Source: a virus | DNA: 64,000 bases | UHGV virus genome: UHGV-1378817 | Reading direction: 5' to 3' (one strand) | Shown: positions 10,751-56,415 of the stretch, piece after piece | How positions within the stretch are numbered: position 1 is the first letter of the stretch | Layout of the letters: every line of letters starts with the position of its first letter | The notes under the pieces: generated by a model | The model's input: only the letters and a program-made list of their open reading frames with translations | The model's database searches: none | Told to the model about the DNA's origin: nothing | Translations under genes and position numbers: made by a program

Positions 10751-10827
10751 TGGTCTCCACGGAGTGATTCGAACACTCGACCTCCTGATCCCAAATCAGG
10801 CGCTCTACCAAGCTGAGCTACGCGGAG
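10751..10827 (-). tRNA. tRNA-Pro (anticodon UGG)
   Basis: Cloverleaf read by hand: 7-bp acceptor, D arm GCTC/GAGC, anticodon arm CCTGA-TTTGGGA-TCAGG, T loop TTCGAAT, encoded CCA. Confidence 0.8.
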
Positions 10828-10838
10828 TATTTATTATT

Positions 10839-10913
10839 TGGTGGCCCTGGGTGGAATTGAACCACCGTCTGGCGATTATGAGTCGCTTGCTTGAACCTTC
10901 CAGCTACAGGGCC
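10839..10913 (-). tRNA. tRNA-Met or Ile2 (anticodon CAU)
   Basis: Acceptor GGCCCTG/CAGGGCC, anticodon arm GCGA-CTCATAA-TCGC, T loop TTCAATT, encoded CCA. Confidence 0.7.
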
Positions 10914-10914
10914 A

Positions 10915-10990
10915 TGGTGCTGATAGCAGGACTCGAACCTGCAACCTATTGATTACAAATCAATTGCACTACCAATTGTGCTACATCAGC
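10915..10990 (-). tRNA. tRNA-Thr (anticodon UGU)
   Basis: Acceptor GCTGATG, D arm GCAC/GTGC, anticodon arm ATTGA-TTTGTAA-TCAAT, T loop TTCGAGT, CCA. Confidence 0.75.
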
Positions 10991-10995
10991 AAAAA

Positions 10996-11094
10996 GGTGC
11001 TAGGTGATGGAATCGAACCACCTATGTATTCAACGACTACCTCGTCTATTTTCAGGATTAAAAATCCTCGCCCTTGCCAAAGGGCTTACCTAGC
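10996..11094 (-). tRNA. atypical long tRNA-like element (~99 nt; anticodon loop reads UUU with 4-bp stem; long extra arm)
   Basis: Acceptor GCTAGGT/ACCTAGC and canonical T arm GGTGG-TTCGATT-CCATC are clear; anticodon arm and a 30-nt variable region are non-canonical; 3' end ACC not CCA. Confidence 0.35.
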
Positions 11095-11192
11095 TCAGTA
11101 TGTTGACCATGTTGCTAGTCGGCGATGACGACTGTAACATTTGATAATCCGGTTCTGCTTCCGGCTTTCGCTTAATTACAAGGTCAACAATA

Positions 11193-11283
11193 TGGCTGAG
11201 GGTAATGGAATCGAACCATCATCGAGTCATCCTCAACGGGACGGTTTTCAAGACCGCTTGAGCACCATTGCTCCCTACCCTCA
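11193..11283 (-). tRNA. tRNA-Ser (anticodon UGA), type II
   Basis: Acceptor TGAGGGT/ACCCTCA, 3-bp D stem, anticodon arm GCGGT-CTTGAAA-ACCGT, long variable arm, T loop TTCGATT, CCA. Confidence 0.75.
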
Positions 11284-11397
11284 TTTATAAACAATACTGA
11301 TAATGACACTGATTTTCGAGCAGTTAGTGACTAGTATAAACGACGATAAATATCAATGCCATTATCTGTATGATTTATGCATTTAAAACTATAAATT

Positions 11398-11484
11398 TGG
11401 TGGGGAGTGGTGGAGTCGAACCACCCGAGTCGCAATGACAATAGATTTACAGTCTACACCGCTACCTCTACGGGATAACTCCCC
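11398..11484 (-). tRNA. tRNA-Tyr (anticodon GUA), type II
   Basis: Acceptor GGGGAGT/ACTCCCC, anticodon arm GTAGA-CTGTAAA-TCTAT, variable arm, T loop TTCGACT, CCA. Confidence 0.75.
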
Positions 11485-11488
11485 AATT

Positions 11489-11563
11489 TGGCACCCCGTA
11501 CTGGACTCGAACCAGTGTCAACGGCTTAGAAGGCCGCTGCTTTATCCACTAAGCTAACAGGGC
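11489..11563 (-). tRNA. tRNA-Arg (anticodon UCU)
   Basis: Acceptor GCCCTGT/ACGGGGT (two G-U pairs), D arm GCTT/AAGC, anticodon arm GCGGC-CTTCTAA-GCCGT, T arm ACTGG-TTCGAGT-CCAGT, CCA. Confidence 0.7.
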
Positions 11564-53334: not shown

Positions 53335-53550
53335 ATGAAGATAGAAATATTTGGTGGGGCTGACAACACTCGTGGCCTGATTTACCTTGAATTTGATGAA
53401 TCATACCTGCCAGAGGTGTTAAATATAGACTCTGTTGCTGAGGCTTTGGGAGTAAACCCTAAAGAACTCCACTCTTGTGCTGAGATCGATGGTTGGGAAG
53501 AGACCATGAACATTGATTTCAGTGAAGTAGAGGACGAACCGCTGGACTGA
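53335..53550 (+). CDS. hypothetical acidic protein
   Basis: 71 aa; MKIEIFGG N-terminus; last plus-strand gene before non-coding region. Confidence 0.4.
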   Translation: MKIEIFGGADNTRGLIYLEFDESYLPEVLNIDSVAEALGVNPKELHSCAEIDGWEETMNIDFSEVEDEPLD

Positions 53551-53679
53551 CACACAATTAGCTGCCCGGCTAAAGTGCTGGAAGCGCACCTATAACACAT
53601 CTTTCAACTAAATTTCCTACCACCACAATCACTTACCTCCAACACATGACTGTTTGCTTGTTTAGTGAGCAGTCATGCC

Positions 53680-53707
53680 TTGACATTCTTGCCTATCCTG
53701 ATAAAAT
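53680..53707 (+). promoter_or_regulatory. sigma70-like promoter firing into ORF-poor region
   Basis: TTGACA, 16-nt spacer, TAAAAT; no convincing ORF downstream. Confidence 0.4.
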
Positions 53708-55021
53708 TAAGTTCTTCTCTTTTCTTTTACCGAGTAATTCGGGTTTTCTGTTCTCTTCGGTTTGAAGGGGTATGGAGATACACCTGAGTGAACAGGGTGA
53801 ACAACCGAACCATTGGCTATGGCATTAGCATGGCGAAGCGGACGGGTGACGAAAGAGGGGCCGGAGGACACCAGTCACTGCCATATGATATATGGGTGAT
53901 AACCTGAAGAGTCTGAATAAGTGTTTAAGTACCAGTCAGAGGAAAAGGTGAATGGTAGCCGAAGGGGGAGGGGGGTTTCTTGTATCTTTAATTTGTATAT
54001 TATGTATACACTTGTAAACCAATATCATCTAGATCTGTTTACCACACAAAGTGGATAGAGACAAATATTACCTATTAAACTTGAATTATTTATAGAAAAT
54101 ACCACAACACCACTTAAGTCTTTGATTTTACACACAAATCTTACAGATATTCAACCTCCATATTTAACATACCTGTAACATATTCCATACTCTACCTGCC
54201 TGATCAATTTCCCCAACTACATCCCTCATATTTCCCCTGTCTGTACTACCCTGCCCCACCGGGAGTCCCGTCATATCTGGCTTTCCAGCAAATATCACAC
54301 CCACAAATATCATGCCTGAAGAGGGTTTCATCCCATAATACCTGCCTTGCCTGAAGAGCGCTTCATACACCACGTAAATTTTTTAATTGACCTCCCCTGC
54401 CCCGCCGGAGAGGTTGGCTTTTCCCACACAGACCTGAAGAGTCAGCCAGAAATATCTGAATAGGCCCAGTTCTACCACGATTTTGACCTGACCTACAGGA
54501 GCGCTGCCAGGCGGACGAAATGGGAATACTTCTCATTCTTATAACAATTCTCAAATATCGAGGCAGTGAGGCAAATTAATAGGCCAGGCCGTTCACACAG
54601 TGGCACAACATTTGCAACCTATCTTGTGGGGGTGAATGAGAATACCTATCATTGTGAGAACCATTATCATTACGGGCAATTTAACATAATACCCATTATG
54701 CGCACCACTGGTGATACATACAGGGATTGATAACACGAGTTACAGTTTACGCATATAACAATCATATTTCTTACTATTTGTGTGGGATATAGTTAGCAGC
54801 CGATAGATTAGATATTGACCTGTGGACTTCCAACCGTCTAGACGTCTAAGCGCCCACACAACAAGGCTTATACATACATTACTGAATGTAAACAGGGCCG
54901 CAAAAATGCTACCATACCAGTTTGTAAATTTTCATGCAGCACTTGACAAAGAGGAGGAAAACTTGTCTGACACAATGTCACACAATATGACACAATAACG
55001 GCTGTTACCATTCCATATCTC

Positions 55022-55077
55022 ACTGTTTACGCATAGACTGTTTACGCCTGGATAGTTTACACCTTGACAGTTTACAC
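55022..55077. repeat. four direct iteron-like repeats with exact 15-bp periodicity (ACTGTTTACGC x2, ATAGTTTACAC, ACAGTTTACAC)
   Basis: Repeat starts at 55022, 55037, 55052, 55067; further copies of the core at 54742-54752 and 55493-55502. Confidence 0.7.
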
Positions 55078-55150
55078 AGATATGATAAGCCATGACATTC
55101 GTTTGCATGAAAACAATTAGCAAGTTAACAATTAACAAGTTAATAATATA

Positions 55151-55303
55151 TGACATAATATAAAAGCAGGGCAACTATTAGAAGATCTATAGTTGCCTTG
55201 CTTGTTATGTCATGATTAACTAAATACAAGGCAACTATGATCTGATTAATAGTTTGCAGACAAACTATCACGGGGGTGATGGTTACTGCTTTTATATTAT
55301 GTC
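55151..55303. repeat. ~150-bp element bounded by perfect 18-bp inverted repeats, containing internal GGCAACTAT palindromes
   Basis: Left arm GACATAATATAAAAGCAG (55152-55169), right arm CTGCTTTTATATTATGTC (55286-55303); inside, GGCAACTAT-N10-ATAGTTGCC. Confidence 0.6.
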
Positions 55304-55946
55304 GCGACTCCGTCGCGCCATGCCATTCGTTTGCATAGTTGCCTTATTGTTACAGATAAAATAATTGTATTGTTAATTATTTCTTATCTTTCTATTAGTC
55401 ATCTAATGATTCCGGTTAGTATAGTAACGTACAGTAAACATTAGACGACTAAATATTTCTATGTTTATGATAACCTATCGTGACAATTCCGGACTGTTTA
55501 CGAAAAATGTTGACACCTGAGCTGATTTATGTTATGCAATTTAAACGAATAATTATTTTATGCAGGTATTGACTATTCCGTTATTCTATGGTTGGAATAA
55601 ATACTTAGCAAGCTATAGAATGGTGAGCGTACGTAAATTCTGAGATTTGTCGGCTATAGTTATACTCGATTTTTCACGTAGAACACGCTTTTTGGTTTGT
55701 GTAAGTGTATGACTTATAAAGATTTTTAGTTGTTGACAAGATATTGAAGATGTGCATCAGGTTAAATTTTGTGCAATAGCTGCATTACGTGCAATTTTGG
55801 AAGGAAAACTGGTAAAAATAGCACCGATACCACACAATGAAAGGTTATGCAATAGCTATTTTATATGTATATTTGTACAGTGTGCAGGATTGATGGCTCG
55901 TCAATTATTCCACTTGCCAGGTAGGGCCGTTTATGGTAGGGGAAGA

Positions 55947-55977
55947 GCAGACAAAAAGAAAGGGGCCTAAGCCCCTT
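55947..55977 (-). terminator. intrinsic terminator closing the minus-strand gene block
   Basis: AGGGGC-ctaa-GCCCCT hairpin followed on minus strand by TCTTTTTGT, about 20 nt after stop of 55996-56415. Confidence 0.6.
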
Positions 55978-55995
55978 GATAATTCAGTTAAAAAA

Positions 55996-56415
55996 TTATA
56001 ATGATTCGTATATTTCAAAAATCCGATTTGCCAGGTCGTTACGGTAGCGGAATTTTTCCTCACGTTTGATCATCAGATCTTTAAAGCCGTATTCTTTAAG
56101 CACTTCATTAACTTTATGGCGGCATACCTTCATATTATCTTGAGCGTCACCAATAAACTTGTTGCTGTGGTGCATTGCTTTAATTTCTTCTTCCAGGACC
56201 AGGGCAACTACCCGTACCGGATCAAGCTGGTAGGCGGTAACATCGATGCGGCATTGTAGACGGCTTTTAACGTCTGCCACCGGATATACTGCAACCTCTT
56301 CCCCGTCAACATTGACAATAATTAGTTTACCATCGATTTCGAATCCTTTCGCCGCCGGACCGTGACAAAAAGCGTTATCAAAGCTATATGCCGGATTATT
56401 AGATTTAATGTTCAT
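55996..56415 (-). CDS. hypothetical protein
   Basis: 139 aa ORF with own promoter and terminator. Confidence 0.45.
   Translation of the reverse strand: MNIKSNNPAYSFDNAFCHGPAAKGFEIDGKLIIVNVDGEEVAVYPVADVKSRLQCRIDVTAYQLDPVRVVALVLEEEIKAMHHSNKFIGDAQDNMKVCRHKVNEVLKEYGFKDLMIKREEKFRYRNDLANRIFEIYESL

What the first reader, a model, noticed from the sequence alone, without database searches (positions are those of the whole stretch)
53551..55995. 2.4-kb ORF-poor hub between convergent gene blocks with several repeat systems
Plus-strand genes end at 53550 and minus-strand genes begin at 55996. The interval has no convincing ORF but does have a good plus-strand promoter (53680), G-rich runs (GGGGGAGGGGGG at about 53965) and three distinct repeat architectures (listed separately). 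This density of cis-elements suggests a replication origin, packaging/terminase recognition region or genome terminus, possibly also encoding small RNAs.
Basis: seen in the sequence. Interest (0 to 1): 0.7.

Follow-up and report, generated by a model that had tools for sequence, protein, structure and literature searches.

The report
Phage chromosome-end region with conserved non-coding elements
This gene-free 2.4-kb stretch of an rV5-like E. coli phage holds the 458-bp repeat that forms both ends of the packaged chromosome; that much is already known for close relatives, but it also carries two almost invariant non-coding elements that no paper or database record I searched describes.

Summary
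Window 53551-55995 is truly non-coding. It has a near-consensus sigma-70 promoter at 53680, a G5AG6 run at 53964 and several repeat systems. The window is a Vequintavirus (rV5-like myophage): 122 phage records match at 90-96%.

The centre of the interval, 54510-54967, is the 458-bp direct terminal repeat (DTR) of the virion DNA. Ten independent relatives' records start or end exactly at these two positions. Two papers report 458/459-bp terminal repeats. A replication origin remains untested. The rV5 paper of 2013 already drew this stretch as a "non-coding" box, so the core finding is known.

Two parts seem undescribed:
- **UCE1 (53716-53980):** a 265-nt block that starts at the promoter's predicted start site and ends at GGGGGAGGGGGGUU. 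It is at least 97.7% identical in 119 genomes, about 7-fold less diverged than neighbouring silent sites. It is probably an early non-coding RNA.
- **UCE2 (55146-55352):** a branched nested inverted repeat 185 bp inside the DTR. Unrelated sequence of the same shape sits 188 bp inside the DTR of a Phapecoctavirus.

The functions of both are inferred, not shown.

The parts
53335..53550 (+). Last gene (71 aa) of the rightward gene block. It marks the left border of the non-coding interval.
   Evidence: ORF list. PHROG phrog_12108, unknown function. Synonymous:non-synonymous 65:25 across relatives.
53680..53707 (+). Near-consensus sigma-70 promoter, TTGACA-16 nt-(TG)TAAAAT. It is the last of 16 perfect -35 promoters on the plus strand, and no ORF follows it.
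   Evidence: In the most diverged relative (L006) both hexamers are kept while the spacer diverges.
53716..53980 (+). UCE1: an ultraconserved 265-nt block from the predicted transcription start to GGGGGAGGGGGG-UU(UCUU). It is a candidate early non-coding RNA. It has a 5' hairpin at 53726-53801 and the G5AG6 run at 53964-53975.
   Evidence: At least 99% identical in 70 and at least 97.7% in all 119 matching Vequintavirus records. Mean pairwise difference is 1.3%, against 8.9% at third codon positions of the adjacent gene and about 9% in the non-coding flanks. Conservation edges are sharp. The 5' hairpin has z = -3.7 on the plus strand only. No Rfam match.
53985..54140 (.). AT-rich, sequence-variable stretch directly after the G-run; 54000-54099 is 26% GC.
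54141..54509 (.). Right-end unique flank. It is C-rich on the plus strand (GC skew -0.33 to -0.71) and carries paired boxes: CTNCCCTGCCCCRCCGG at 54246 and 54392, TGCCTGAAGAGSGYTTCAT at 54313 and 54348. A length-variable site with GGAGYGCTGCC repeats lies just before the cut site.
   Evidence: A similar CC(C)TCCCGCC box pair occurs in the A7_1/LTH01 lineage.
54510..54967 (.). The 458-bp direct terminal repeat (DTR) of the virion chromosome. Inferred terminase cut positions are 54509/54510 and 54967/54968.
   Evidence: It aligns to the repeat_region at both ends of Gotham MT682716. Records bov11CS3, bov25_3, bov10K2, bov22_2, Pr121LW, ECP2309, EdH4, HdK5 and EcoIv14a_Aya start or end exactly at these positions. 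Literature: PMC6563267 and PMC7471380.
54968..54997 (+). Array of about 10-bp GACAY(AAT) repeats starting at the first base after the DTR. Relatives have 3-7 copies.
55022..55082 (+). Tandem 15-bp repeats with core ACTGTTTAC(R)C. There are 4 copies here and 2 to about 14 in relatives. This is the most variable part of the interval (46-78% identity). Further single copies lie at 54742 and 55493.
55083..55147 (+). Conserved box GATAAGCCATGMCATTCGTTTGCATGA (repeated at 55317-55336), followed by 15-bp AACAATTARCAAGTTA repeats. Many relatives carry an extra hairpin/terminator insertion here.
55146..55352 (.). UCE2: a nearly invariant branched nested inverted repeat. An outer 18-bp perfect stem (55152-55169 / 55286-55303) encloses two hairpins and four alternating GGCAACTAT sites. 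The stem arms carry a -10-like CATAAT, and their complements form U-rich terminator tails.
   Evidence: Fold z = -7.5 to -11 on either strand as RNA or DNA. Mean pairwise difference 2.2%. Elements of the same shape occur in Phapecoctavirus Mt1B1_P17, 188 bp inside its DTR, and in A7_1/LTH01. It is deleted in the FV3 record.
55353..55959 (.). AT-rich (30-37% GC) left-end spacer, moderately conserved, with no conserved ORF. It holds several TTGACA boxes without good -10 elements, and one copy of the rV5 late-promoter-like motif TGGTAAAAATA at 55810.
   Evidence: The late motif is described in PMC3606486.
55960..55977 (-). Intrinsic terminator of the leftward gene block: AAGGGGCTTAGGCCCCTT followed by a T-run.
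   Evidence: It is annotated as a terminator in the Murica, Alma and Gotham records.
55996..56415 (-). First gene inside the left chromosome end (139 aa, unknown function). It marks the right border of the interval.
   Evidence: phrog_12277, no Pfam match. About 90% amino-acid identity in Phapecoctavirus, where it is also the first gene inside the DTR.

Best explanation
The interval is the chromosome-end region of a Vequintavirus, seen here as it appears in a concatemer or in a circularly rearranged assembly. From left to right it reads: right-end unique flank (53551-54509), one copy of the 458-bp DTR (54510-54967), then left-end unique flank (54968-55995).

In the virion the DNA is linear, with the DTR at both ends. 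Both neighbouring gene blocks are transcribed outward toward the ends, which is why the ends look like a gene-free hub between convergent blocks.

Mechanism:
- Shown by homology: the chromosome ends lie at 54510 and 54967.
- Inferred: terminase recognises sequences in the flanks of the concatemer junction and cuts precisely at 54509/54510 and 54967/54968. The single junction copy of the DTR is duplicated, so each packaged genome carries two copies, as in T3/T7-type exact-end packaging.
- Inferred: the phased GACAY and TTTAC arrays that begin at the first base after the DTR, and the branched inverted repeat UCE2 185 bp further in, are the most likely protein-binding or hairpin-forming cis-elements for this process.
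- Inferred: the promoter at 53680 makes an early host-polymerase transcript of about 265 nt (UCE1). It is either a stable structured RNA or a transcript acting in cis at the right end.
For: - The window is a Vequintavirus: 122 records match at 90-96%.
- The 459-bp repeat_region features at both ends of Gotham align to window 54510-54967, with unique right-end sequence continuing to the left and unique left-end sequence to the right.
- Nine further records from several laboratories begin or end at exactly these two positions.
- The interval has no conserved ORF.
- Both outer flanks of the DTR are the most variable and most repeat-rich parts, and the repeat motifs cluster only here within the 64 kb.
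- The same layout occurs in another subfamily, in Phapecoctavirus Mt1B1_P17: an exact 328-bp DTR, a branched inverted repeat 188 bp inside it, then the same 139-aa first gene.
- UCE1's conservation starts at the predicted transcription start and stops at the G-run/U-tract.
Against: - No read data exist for this phage itself, so its ends are inferred from relatives that are 93-96% identical.
- The rV5 paper calls the genome circularly permuted.
- A PhageTerm run on BpE1AUH suggested headful packaging with partial permutation.
- No experiment links any of the repeats or UCE2 to terminase. The FV3 record lacks UCE2, so UCE2 may be dispensable, or that assembly may be faulty.
- The CM1 record carries a 523-bp duplication rather than 458 bp, starting at the same left boundary. 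The right cut may therefore vary.
- The terminase type was not examined.
Confidence: 0.8

Rival explanations
1. UCE1 is a free-standing, trans-acting structured non-coding RNA of about 265 nt, made early from the sigma-70 promoter. It might act in host takeover, in anti-defence, or as a packaging or replication cofactor. Its position next to the chromosome end would then be incidental. This does not exclude the terminus explanation.
For: - A promoter with 11 of 12 matches and an upstream TG, with no ORF downstream.
- Conservation begins at the predicted start site even in L006, whose promoter spacer has diverged. It ends within 2-4 nt after GGGGGAGGGGGGUU.
- 1.3% pairwise divergence against about 9% nearby, and at least 97.7% identity in 119 genomes.
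- The plus-strand fold is far more stable than the minus-strand fold (-82 versus -53 kcal/mol). The 5' hairpin has z = -3.7.
- The predicted 5' pyrimidine tract pairs with the 3' G-run, closing the molecule.
- None of the 84 consensus pairs is broken in any of 13 distinct variants. Changes in paired columns are G.U to A-U or C-G to U-G.
Against: - The whole-molecule fold z is only -1.26.
- The RNAalifold consensus shows no double-sided compensatory change. The one candidate, C53810U with G53841A in L006, depends on the pairing register.
- There is no compact intrinsic terminator hairpin before the U-tract.
- There is no Rfam match.
- No homologue exists outside the genus in the phage, E. coli, IMG/VR, metagenome or GTDB scans, so covariation cannot be tested.
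- No expression data were found.
Confidence: 0.45
2. The interval contains the phage replication origin. Two forms are possible. In the first, a transcript-primed (R-loop) origin, RNA from the 53680 promoter forms a persistent hybrid at the G5AG6 run and the adjacent 26%-GC stretch unwinds. In the second, an iteron-type origin is built from the 15-bp arrays, the AT-rich DNA and the UCE2 hairpins. This does not exclude the terminus explanation.
For: - The order promoter, then G-rich RNA run, then AT-rich DNA is present. It resembles ColE1 RNA II, T4 oriF/oriG and mitochondrial CSBII (from my own knowledge, not tested here).
- A G5AG5AG5 run followed by a T-tract is also present in the A7_1/LTH01 lineage.
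- Tandem 15-bp repeats, AT-rich DNA at 28% GC (55100-55199) and strong hairpins are classic origin ingredients.
- The cumulative GC skew of the window peaks here.
Against: - The GC-skew switch coincides with the change in transcription direction. The rV5 authors judged it uninformative.
- There is only one DnaA box and one IHF core.
- No initiator gene is recognisable next to the arrays.
- The repeat copy number ranges from 2 to about 14 among close relatives, which is unusual for essential iterons.
- R-loop priming alone would not require all 265 nt of UCE1 to be invariant.
- Rightward synthesis from 53980 would run off the right end after about 1 kb, unless the genome is circular or concatemeric.
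Confidence: 0.25
3. The genome is packaged by a headful mechanism and is circularly permuted, as first stated for rV5. In that case the interval is not a terminus. It would be only a transcription-termination zone with leftover repeats, and the shared record ends would be an assembly or annotation convention.
For: - The rV5 paper calls the genome circularly permuted.
- PhageTerm on BpE1AUH suggested headful packaging.
- Most deposited Vequintavirus records are opened elsewhere.
Against: - Ten records from different laboratories share the same two end positions to the base. Records opened by copying the rV5 start would not give this.
- Three of them carry the same 458/459 bp at both ends.
- Two papers derive the repeat from read coverage or assembly.
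- rV5 was assembled from 3.6-fold Sanger shotgun coverage, which cannot detect a 458-bp repeat.
- BpE1AUH came from a phage cocktail assembly.
- Two blocks are about 7-fold and about 4-fold more conserved than silent sites, which argues against leftover sequence.
Confidence: 0.05

Closest known systems
The DTR and 'non-coding' box of other Vequintaviruses (rV5, Gotham, EdH4, HdK5)
   Same: It is the same locus at 90-96% nucleotide identity. The same 458/459-bp repeat has the same two boundaries. The same ORF-free stretch lies between rV5 genes 163 and 164 and is drawn as 'non-coding' in the rV5 map.
   Different: Nothing of substance differs. This phage has 4 TTTAC repeats, against 2 to about 14 in relatives. 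It lacks a 32-bp insertion just left of the DTR and lacks the hairpin insertion before UCE2. The literature I could search gives only the repeat length. It does not describe UCE1, UCE2 or the arrays.
T3/T7-type exact-end packaging at the concatemer junction
   Same: Both have short direct terminal repeats cut precisely from concatemers (PMC13595956) and a non-coding junction. In T7, transcription reaching the right end of the junction is coupled to maturation: the polymerase-lysozyme complex pauses there and recruits gp18/gp19 (PMC3276506). From my own knowledge, not checked here: T7's repeat is flanked by arrays of short repeats (SRL/SRR), and a hairpin end near the junction was proposed as an intermediate in duplicating the repeat.
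   Different: This is a 137-kb myophage that uses host RNA polymerase and has no T7-like polymerase. There is no sequence similarity. The terminase was not compared. The repeat is 458 bp, against 160-230 bp. The role of the arrays and the hairpin is only an analogy.
Phapecoctavirus (phAPEC8-like) chromosome ends, for example Mt1B1_P17 and Schickermooser
   Same: A short exact DTR of 328 bp. A non-coding left end of about 0.9 kb. A branched nested inverted repeat 188 bp inside the DTR, against 185 bp here. The same 139-aa first gene at about 90% amino-acid identity. Short shared motifs in the DTR: ACAATTCYCAAATATC about 35 nt from the left end, and GAATGAGAATA..TATCATT.
   Different: The non-coding DNA cannot be aligned overall (global alignment z = 1.9). 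There is no UCE1 homologue. The right-end gene block there is on the other strand, so the ends are not flanked by convergent genes.
Transcript-primed origins (ColE1 RNA II, T4 oriF/oriG, mitochondrial LSP-CSBII)
   Same: A promoter, then a G-run in the RNA-like strand (G5AG6, resembling CSBII), then an AT-rich unwinding-prone stretch.
   Different: The resemblance is recalled from memory and only the sequence layout was checked. No hybrid, processing or initiation data exist. The 265 nt of invariant sequence is not explained by this model.
phi29 packaging RNA (pRNA)
   Same: A structured RNA encoded next to a chromosome end, made from an early host-type promoter.
   Different: No match to any Rfam model, a library I expect (from memory, not verified) to include the pRNA family. 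The packaging system is different (terminase and DTR, against terminal protein). This is a loose analogy only.

Membership tests
Short direct-terminal-repeat (exact-end) phage chromosome | The same sequence is present at both ends of the virion DNA. | tested here: met
   Met in relatives. The Gotham record has the repeat at 1-459 and at 136567-137025. ECP2309 and EdH4 have two places at their record ends. The window segment 54510-54967 is the homologue.
Short direct-terminal-repeat (exact-end) phage chromosome | The ends are fixed and non-permuted, and reproducible between isolates. | tested here: met
   Ten records from several laboratories start or end at exactly window 54510 or 54967. Supported by PMC7471380 and PMC6563267.
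Short direct-terminal-repeat (exact-end) phage chromosome | Two-fold read coverage over the repeat, and sharp read-start and read-end peaks, in this phage. | not testable with these tools
   No sequencing reads are available for the window's source.
Short direct-terminal-repeat (exact-end) phage chromosome | The large terminase belongs to a clade of exact-end (DTR) packagers. | not tested
   From the window's alignment to rV5 coordinates, the terminase gene appears to lie outside the 64-kb window (not checked); no terminase phylogeny was run.
Headful (pac) packaging with circular permutation | The ends are spread over the genome, with no fixed terminal repeat. | tested here: not met
   End positions are identical in ten records, and the same 458/459 bp sits at both ends. 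The 'permuted' statements rest on low-coverage Sanger data or on a cocktail assembly.
Iteron/DnaA-type replication origin | A cluster of repeated initiator-binding sites next to an AT-rich unwinding element. | tested here: inconclusive
   15-bp tandem arrays and 28%-GC DNA are present. The copy number varies from 2 to about 14 between relatives, and no initiator is known.
Iteron/DnaA-type replication origin | A cluster of DnaA boxes. | tested here: not met
   One TTWTNCACA match in 2445 bp.
Iteron/DnaA-type replication origin | Replication initiates here. | not testable with these tools
   This needs marker-frequency or 2D-gel data. The GC-skew switch is confounded by transcription direction.
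Transcript-primed (R-loop) origin | A promoter followed by a G-rich RNA segment and a downstream unwinding element. | tested here: met
   Promoter at 53680-53707, G5AG6 at 53964-53975, and 26% GC at 54000-54099. This is layout only.
Transcript-primed (R-loop) origin | A persistent RNA:DNA hybrid that is processed into a primer. | not testable with these tools
   Experimental only.
Any described RNA family (Rfam 15; expected from memory to include phi29 pRNA, 6S, tmRNA, RNase P and the ribozymes) | A match to a curated covariance model. | tested here: not met
   No match in 53400-56100 even at E up to 5. Only tRNAs match elsewhere in the window.
Structured non-coding RNA (generic) | Compensatory base-pair changes that support a fold. 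| tested here: inconclusive
   Across 13 distinct variants, 84 consensus pairs show 0 broken and 0 double-sided changes. One register-dependent candidate pair exists in L006. There is too little variation to decide.

The most novel reading that the evidence does not exclude
UCE1 (53716-53980) is an undescribed, genus-wide, almost invariant early RNA of about 265 nt, closed by pairing of its 5' pyrimidine tract with the 3' G5AG6 run. It would act at the chromosome end, as a packaging or DTR-duplication cofactor or as an R-loop primer, rather than being an ordinary regulatory sRNA.

UCE2, the branched hairpin kept at about 185 bp inside the DTR in two phage subfamilies, would be the fold-back element used to duplicate or process the terminal repeat.

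Together they would give a first handle on how exact-end, short-repeat genomes are matured in large myophages.
Probability: 0.15. Interest if true: 0.7.

Novelty: already known. Interest (0 to 1): 0.4.

Why it matters
The main point is practical. Many Vequintavirus records, and this window, are opened at an arbitrary position, and the type phage is still described as circularly permuted. Placing the true ends at 54510/54967 corrects genome maps, annotation (several records call spurious ORFs across this stretch) and engineering designs for a phage group widely used against E. coli O157 and in the BASEL collection.

There is also a wider point. How short exact terminal repeats are recognised and duplicated is acknowledged to be poorly understood, even for T7 and T5 (PMC13595956). 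This locus offers compact, testable cis-elements: two arrays that start at the cut site, a shape-conserved hairpin at a fixed distance, and an invariant promoter-driven element. If UCE1 is a real RNA, it would be a new, strongly constrained phage non-coding RNA with no known relatives.

Tried and rejected
- **Protein-coding reading.** All ORFs of 30 aa or more in the interval were tested across 17 relatives and rejected, being broken or having more non-synonymous than synonymous changes. Some GenBank records annotate up to 14 'hypothetical proteins' here. I regard these as overcalls.
- **Known RNA families.** Rfam at gathering threshold over the whole window, and at E up to 5 over the interval, found nothing but tRNAs.
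- **Host origin of UCE1.** There is no match in 5,426 complete E. coli genomes and none in GTDB species genomes for a 22-mer.
- **Distant homologues for covariation.** A sensitive blastn against 50,697 phage records found only the genus (the four short Pasteurella phage hits, about 29 nt at E near 1, are chance). An 18-mer scan of metagenomes gave 3 true Vequintavirus contigs and 3 chance hits. IMG/VR gave 2 contigs. A palindrome pattern for UCE2 gave 28 loci; all except the two Vequintavirus contigs already in hand (L006, L007) were unrelated.
- **Global homology of the DTRs of Vequintavirus and Phapecoctavirus.** Not significant (z = 1.9). Only short motifs are shared.
- **DnaA, IHF and Fis site clusters.** Absent.
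- **Function of the flanking genes.** No Pfam hits above threshold, and only PHROGs of unknown function.
- **The duplication in the I29 record as extra end evidence.** Rejected. It is a 546-bp repeat with an inverted 60-nt junction that does not coincide with the ends, probably an assembly artefact.
- **Literature searches** for a Vequintavirus transcriptome or non-coding RNA returned nothing relevant.
Full report
**1. What the window is.** The interval 53551-55995 matches 122 phage records at 90-96% identity. All are Vequintavirus (rV5-like E. coli myophages); the best is phage A51.2 at 96%. A sensitive blastn search found the same 122 records and nothing outside the genus. Nineteen matching records are labelled 'Campylobacter phage'. 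The two I opened are marked UNVERIFIED and are classified as Vequintavirus.

**2.
- The 71-aa plus-strand ORF ends at 53550, and the 139-aa minus-strand ORF has its stop at 55996. Two gene blocks therefore converge on a 2,445-bp gap.
- I aligned 17 relatives and tested every ORF of 30 aa or more inside the gap. Most of the longer ones are interrupted in most relatives. All that could be scored show more non-synonymous than synonymous differences. The two flanking genes show 65:25 and 204:62 in favour of synonymous changes. The gap is genuinely non-coding.
- The promoter is TTGACA-16 nt-TAAAAT with an upstream TG, at 53680-53707.
- The G-run GGGGGAGGGGGG is at 53964-53975.
- The repeat systems are real and are confined to this part of the 64 kb.

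**3. The centre is the chromosome end.**
- The rV5 paper (PMC3606486) draws a grey 'non-coding' box between genes 163 and 164. It notes a GC-skew switch at 104425-105475 that coincides with a change in transcription direction, and it calls the genome circularly permuted.
- Later work disagrees on permutation. [quoted passage not shown] - The Gotham record carries a repeat_region at 1-459 and at 136567-137025. Aligned to the window, both copies fall on 54510-54967. Gotham's unique right-end sequence continues leftward to 53540, and its unique left-end sequence continues rightward to 56010.
- Nine further records start or end exactly at window 54510 or 54967: bov11CS3, bov25_3, bov10K2, bov22_2, Pr121LW, ECP2309, EdH4, HdK5 and EcoIv14a_Aya.
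- Identical ends in records from independent laboratories cannot arise under random circular permutation.
- I therefore place the 458-bp DTR at 54510-54967. The part to its left is the unique right end of the chromosome, and the part to its right is the unique left end. The window shows them joined, as in a concatemer or a re-opened assembly.

**4. Anatomy of the flanks.** The conservation profile is very uneven.
- **Just left of the DTR.** A length-variable site holds GGAGYGCTGCC repeats. Gotham has 32 extra bp there.
- **Just right of the DTR.** From the first base after it, there is an array of about 10-bp GACAY repeats (3-7 copies in relatives). An array of 15-bp ACTGTTTACRC repeats follows (4 copies here, 2 to about 14 in relatives). 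Then come a conserved box, GATAAGCCATGMCATTCGTTTGCATGA, and 15-bp AACAATTARCAAGTTA repeats. This stretch is the least conserved of the whole region (46-78% identity to the window), yet the core motifs are kept.
- **The DTR itself** shows a mean pairwise difference of 6.6%. The outer spacers show about 9%, the same as third codon positions of the neighbouring 71-aa gene at 8.9%.

**5. UCE1 (53716-53980).**
- Mean pairwise difference is 1.3%. In a search of all phage records, 70 of 119 matches are at least 99% identical and the lowest is 97.7%. For the DTR only 1 record is at least 99% identical and 84 fall at 90-95%.
- The edges are sharp. In the most diverged relative (L006, an IMG/VR contig) the promoter spacer has diverged and gained 2 nt while both hexamers are kept, and near-identity resumes at 53716. 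In four relatives the sequence diverges within 2-4 nt after GGGGGAGGGGGGTT. This is the pattern expected for a transcript, not for a protein-binding DNA site.
- The promoter is the last of 16 perfect -35 plus-strand promoters in the window, and the only one in this interval's neighbourhood with no ORF after it.
- Folding gives a plus-strand energy of -82.2 kcal/mol, against -52.7 for the complement.
- The 5' hairpin (53726-53801) has z = -3.7 on the plus strand only.
- A closing helix is predicted between the 5' pyrimidine tract and the G-run.
- The whole-molecule z-score is only -1.26.
- Across 13 distinct variants, none of the 84 consensus pairs is broken, but none shows a double-sided change either.
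- The one candidate compensatory pair, C53810U with G53841A in L006, exists in the single-sequence fold but not in the RNAalifold register.
- There is no Rfam match, no E. coli homologue, and no homologue in metagenomes, IMG/VR or GTDB genomes beyond Vequintavirus contigs.
- I conclude that UCE1 is probably an early non-coding RNA. Its structure is supported only weakly and its function is unknown.
- The G-run is followed by DNA of 26% GC. This layout recalls transcript-primed origins; that is from memory and was not tested.
- A G5AG5AG5 run followed by a T-tract also occurs in the A7_1/LTH01 lineage. There it directly follows a TGCCAGGC motif like the one at the Vequintavirus left cut site.

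**6. UCE2 (55146-55352).**
- Mean pairwise difference is 2.2%.
- It is a nested inverted repeat. A perfect 18-bp outer stem (55152-55169 / 55286-55303) encloses two hairpins and four alternating GGCAACTAT sites.
- It folds into a branched structure on either strand, as RNA or as DNA, with z from -7.5 to -11.
- The outer arms carry a -10-like CATAAT. Their complements form U-rich tails after hairpins. The element could therefore be a pair of convergent small transcription units, a bidirectional terminator (Murica and Alma annotate a terminator here), or a DNA hairpin or cruciform.
- The strongest evidence for function is comparative. The 139-aa first gene to the right (phrog_12277, no Pfam match) is about 90% identical in Phapecoctavirus, a different subfamily, and there too it is the first gene inside the chromosome end. 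Mt1B1_P17 has an exact 328-bp DTR at both record ends. At 188 bp inside that DTR lies a 24-bp-stem branched inverted repeat of unrelated sequence. In the window the distance is 185 bp.
- The unclassified Vequintavirinae A7_1 and LTH01 have a third version, with arm sequence GACACTATAAAACGAG, against GACATAATATAAAAGCAG here.
- Shape and position are thus kept while sequence is not.
- The FV3 record lacks the element. Either it is dispensable or that older assembly collapsed it.

**7. Most likely mechanism.**
- Shown by homology: the ends of the packaged DNA lie at 54510 and 54967, and the DNA between them is present at both ends.
- Inferred: in replicating concatemers a single DTR copy joins two genomes. 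Terminase recognises sites in the junction flanks, cuts at the two boundaries, and the DTR is duplicated. This is the T3/T7-type strategy, whose details are acknowledged to be poorly understood (PMC13595956).
- The arrays that begin at the cut site have periods of 10 and 15 bp. They are the best candidates for small-terminase binding sites.
- UCE2, at a fixed distance from the DTR, is the best candidate for a fold-back or protein-binding element in end processing.
[quoted passage not shown] The outward-facing promoter at 53680, 830 bp upstream of the DTR, could play a similar role. If UCE1 ends at its U-tract, however, it does not reach the DTR.
- A replication origin here is possible but unsupported. 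There is one DnaA box, no recognisable initiator, variable repeat numbers and a confounded skew.

**8. Novelty.** The ORF-free box has been published since 2013. The DTR has been published since 2019-2020 and is annotated in GenBank for phages that are 93-96% identical in this segment. I therefore rate the finding as already known.

In the papers and records I could search, I found no description of UCE1 or its promoter (no promoter is annotated there in the rV5 or Gotham records), of UCE2 as a conserved branched element, or of the cut-site arrays. These justify a moderate interest score.

**9. Limits.**
- No reads or expression data exist for this phage.
- All end positions are transferred from relatives.
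- The terminase was not analysed.
- The analogies to T7 short-repeat arrays and hairpin intermediates, ColE1, T4 origins and mitochondrial CSBII rest on my own knowledge, not on tests made here.

Noticed in passing
window 55996-56415 (-); L020 1245-1664; L055/L056 3501-3920: The 139-aa gene next to the interval (phrog_12277, no Pfam domain) is about 90% amino-acid identical and 84% nucleotide identical in Phapecoctavirus, a different subfamily. It is about 87% identical in unclassified Vequintavirinae (A7_1, LTH01). In Phapecoctavirus, and by homology in Vequintavirus, it is the first gene inside the left chromosome end. This suggests a shared or exchanged end module.
   Followed up: partly
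L016 (Shigella phage CM1, MK962749) 1632-2677: The CM1 record carries a perfect 523-bp tandem duplication. It begins exactly at the DTR left boundary but ends 65 bp beyond the usual right boundary, after the GACAY array. Either both terminal copies were kept when the contig was re-opened and CM1's repeat is 523 bp, or it is an assembly artefact.
   Followed up: partly
L028 (phage I29, ON286975) 72-1211: The I29 record has a 546-bp duplication joined through a 60-nt inverted segment. It overlaps the left DTR boundary but is not aligned with it. It looks like a chimeric assembly artefact.
   Followed up: partly
L018 (phage FV3, NC_019517), equivalent to window about 55083-55320: The FV3 record lacks most of UCE2 and the adjacent arrays, while all 15 other relatives aligned across this position keep UCE2 almost unchanged. 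This is either a real deletion, making the element dispensable, or a collapsed hairpin in an older assembly.
   Followed up: no
window 10996-11094 (-): Within a cluster of seven tRNA genes (10751-11563), ARAGORN reports a 99-nt tRNA-like gene with a four-base anticodon 'atcc' and no assigned amino acid. Rfam scores it only 35.5 bits. It may be an intron-containing, frameshift-suppressor-like or degenerate tRNA.
   Followed up: no
phage records MG0656xx (for example L012, L013): Nineteen 'Campylobacter phage' records match this E. coli phage region; those listed are 85-95% identical. The two I opened are marked UNVERIFIED and are classified as Vequintavirus. They are probably mislabelled hosts or contaminants.
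   Followed up: no
L056 (reverse complement) about 678-710; L055 (reverse complement) about 857-890: In the A7_1/LTH01 lineage a G5AG5AG5 run followed by a T-tract directly follows a TGCCAGGC motif like the one at the Vequintavirus left cut site (CTGCCA^GGCGGACG). In the window the G5AG6 run lies 535 bp upstream of that site. The G-run may therefore be linked to end function in a wider group.
   Followed up: partly
window 54544-54559 and 54530-54651; L020 36-75 and 233-254: The DTRs of Vequintavirus and Phapecoctavirus cannot be aligned overall but share two motifs: ACAATTCYCAAATATC about 35 nt from the left end in both, and palindrome-like GAATGAGAATA..TATCATT motifs that look somewhat like a Fur box. 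These could be binding sites for a shared protein.
   Followed up: partly
window 53551-55995: GATC is about 3-fold under-represented in the interval, with 4 sites against about 13.6 expected from the window-wide density of one per 180 bp. Two of the four sites lie inside UCE2 (55184, 55239).
   Followed up: no
window 55810-55820 (+): The only copy in the 64 kb of TGGTAAAAATA, which fits the rV5 late-promoter-like motif TggTAaAAtA. It points toward the terminator at 55960 and runs antisense to the 139-aa gene.
   Followed up: no
L014 (MiataMamis), L015 (Mangalyan), L003 (JEP1): Some deposited records annotate 3 to 14 'hypothetical protein' genes across this non-coding interval and across the DTR. 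The conservation test indicates that these are overcalls.
   Followed up: yes
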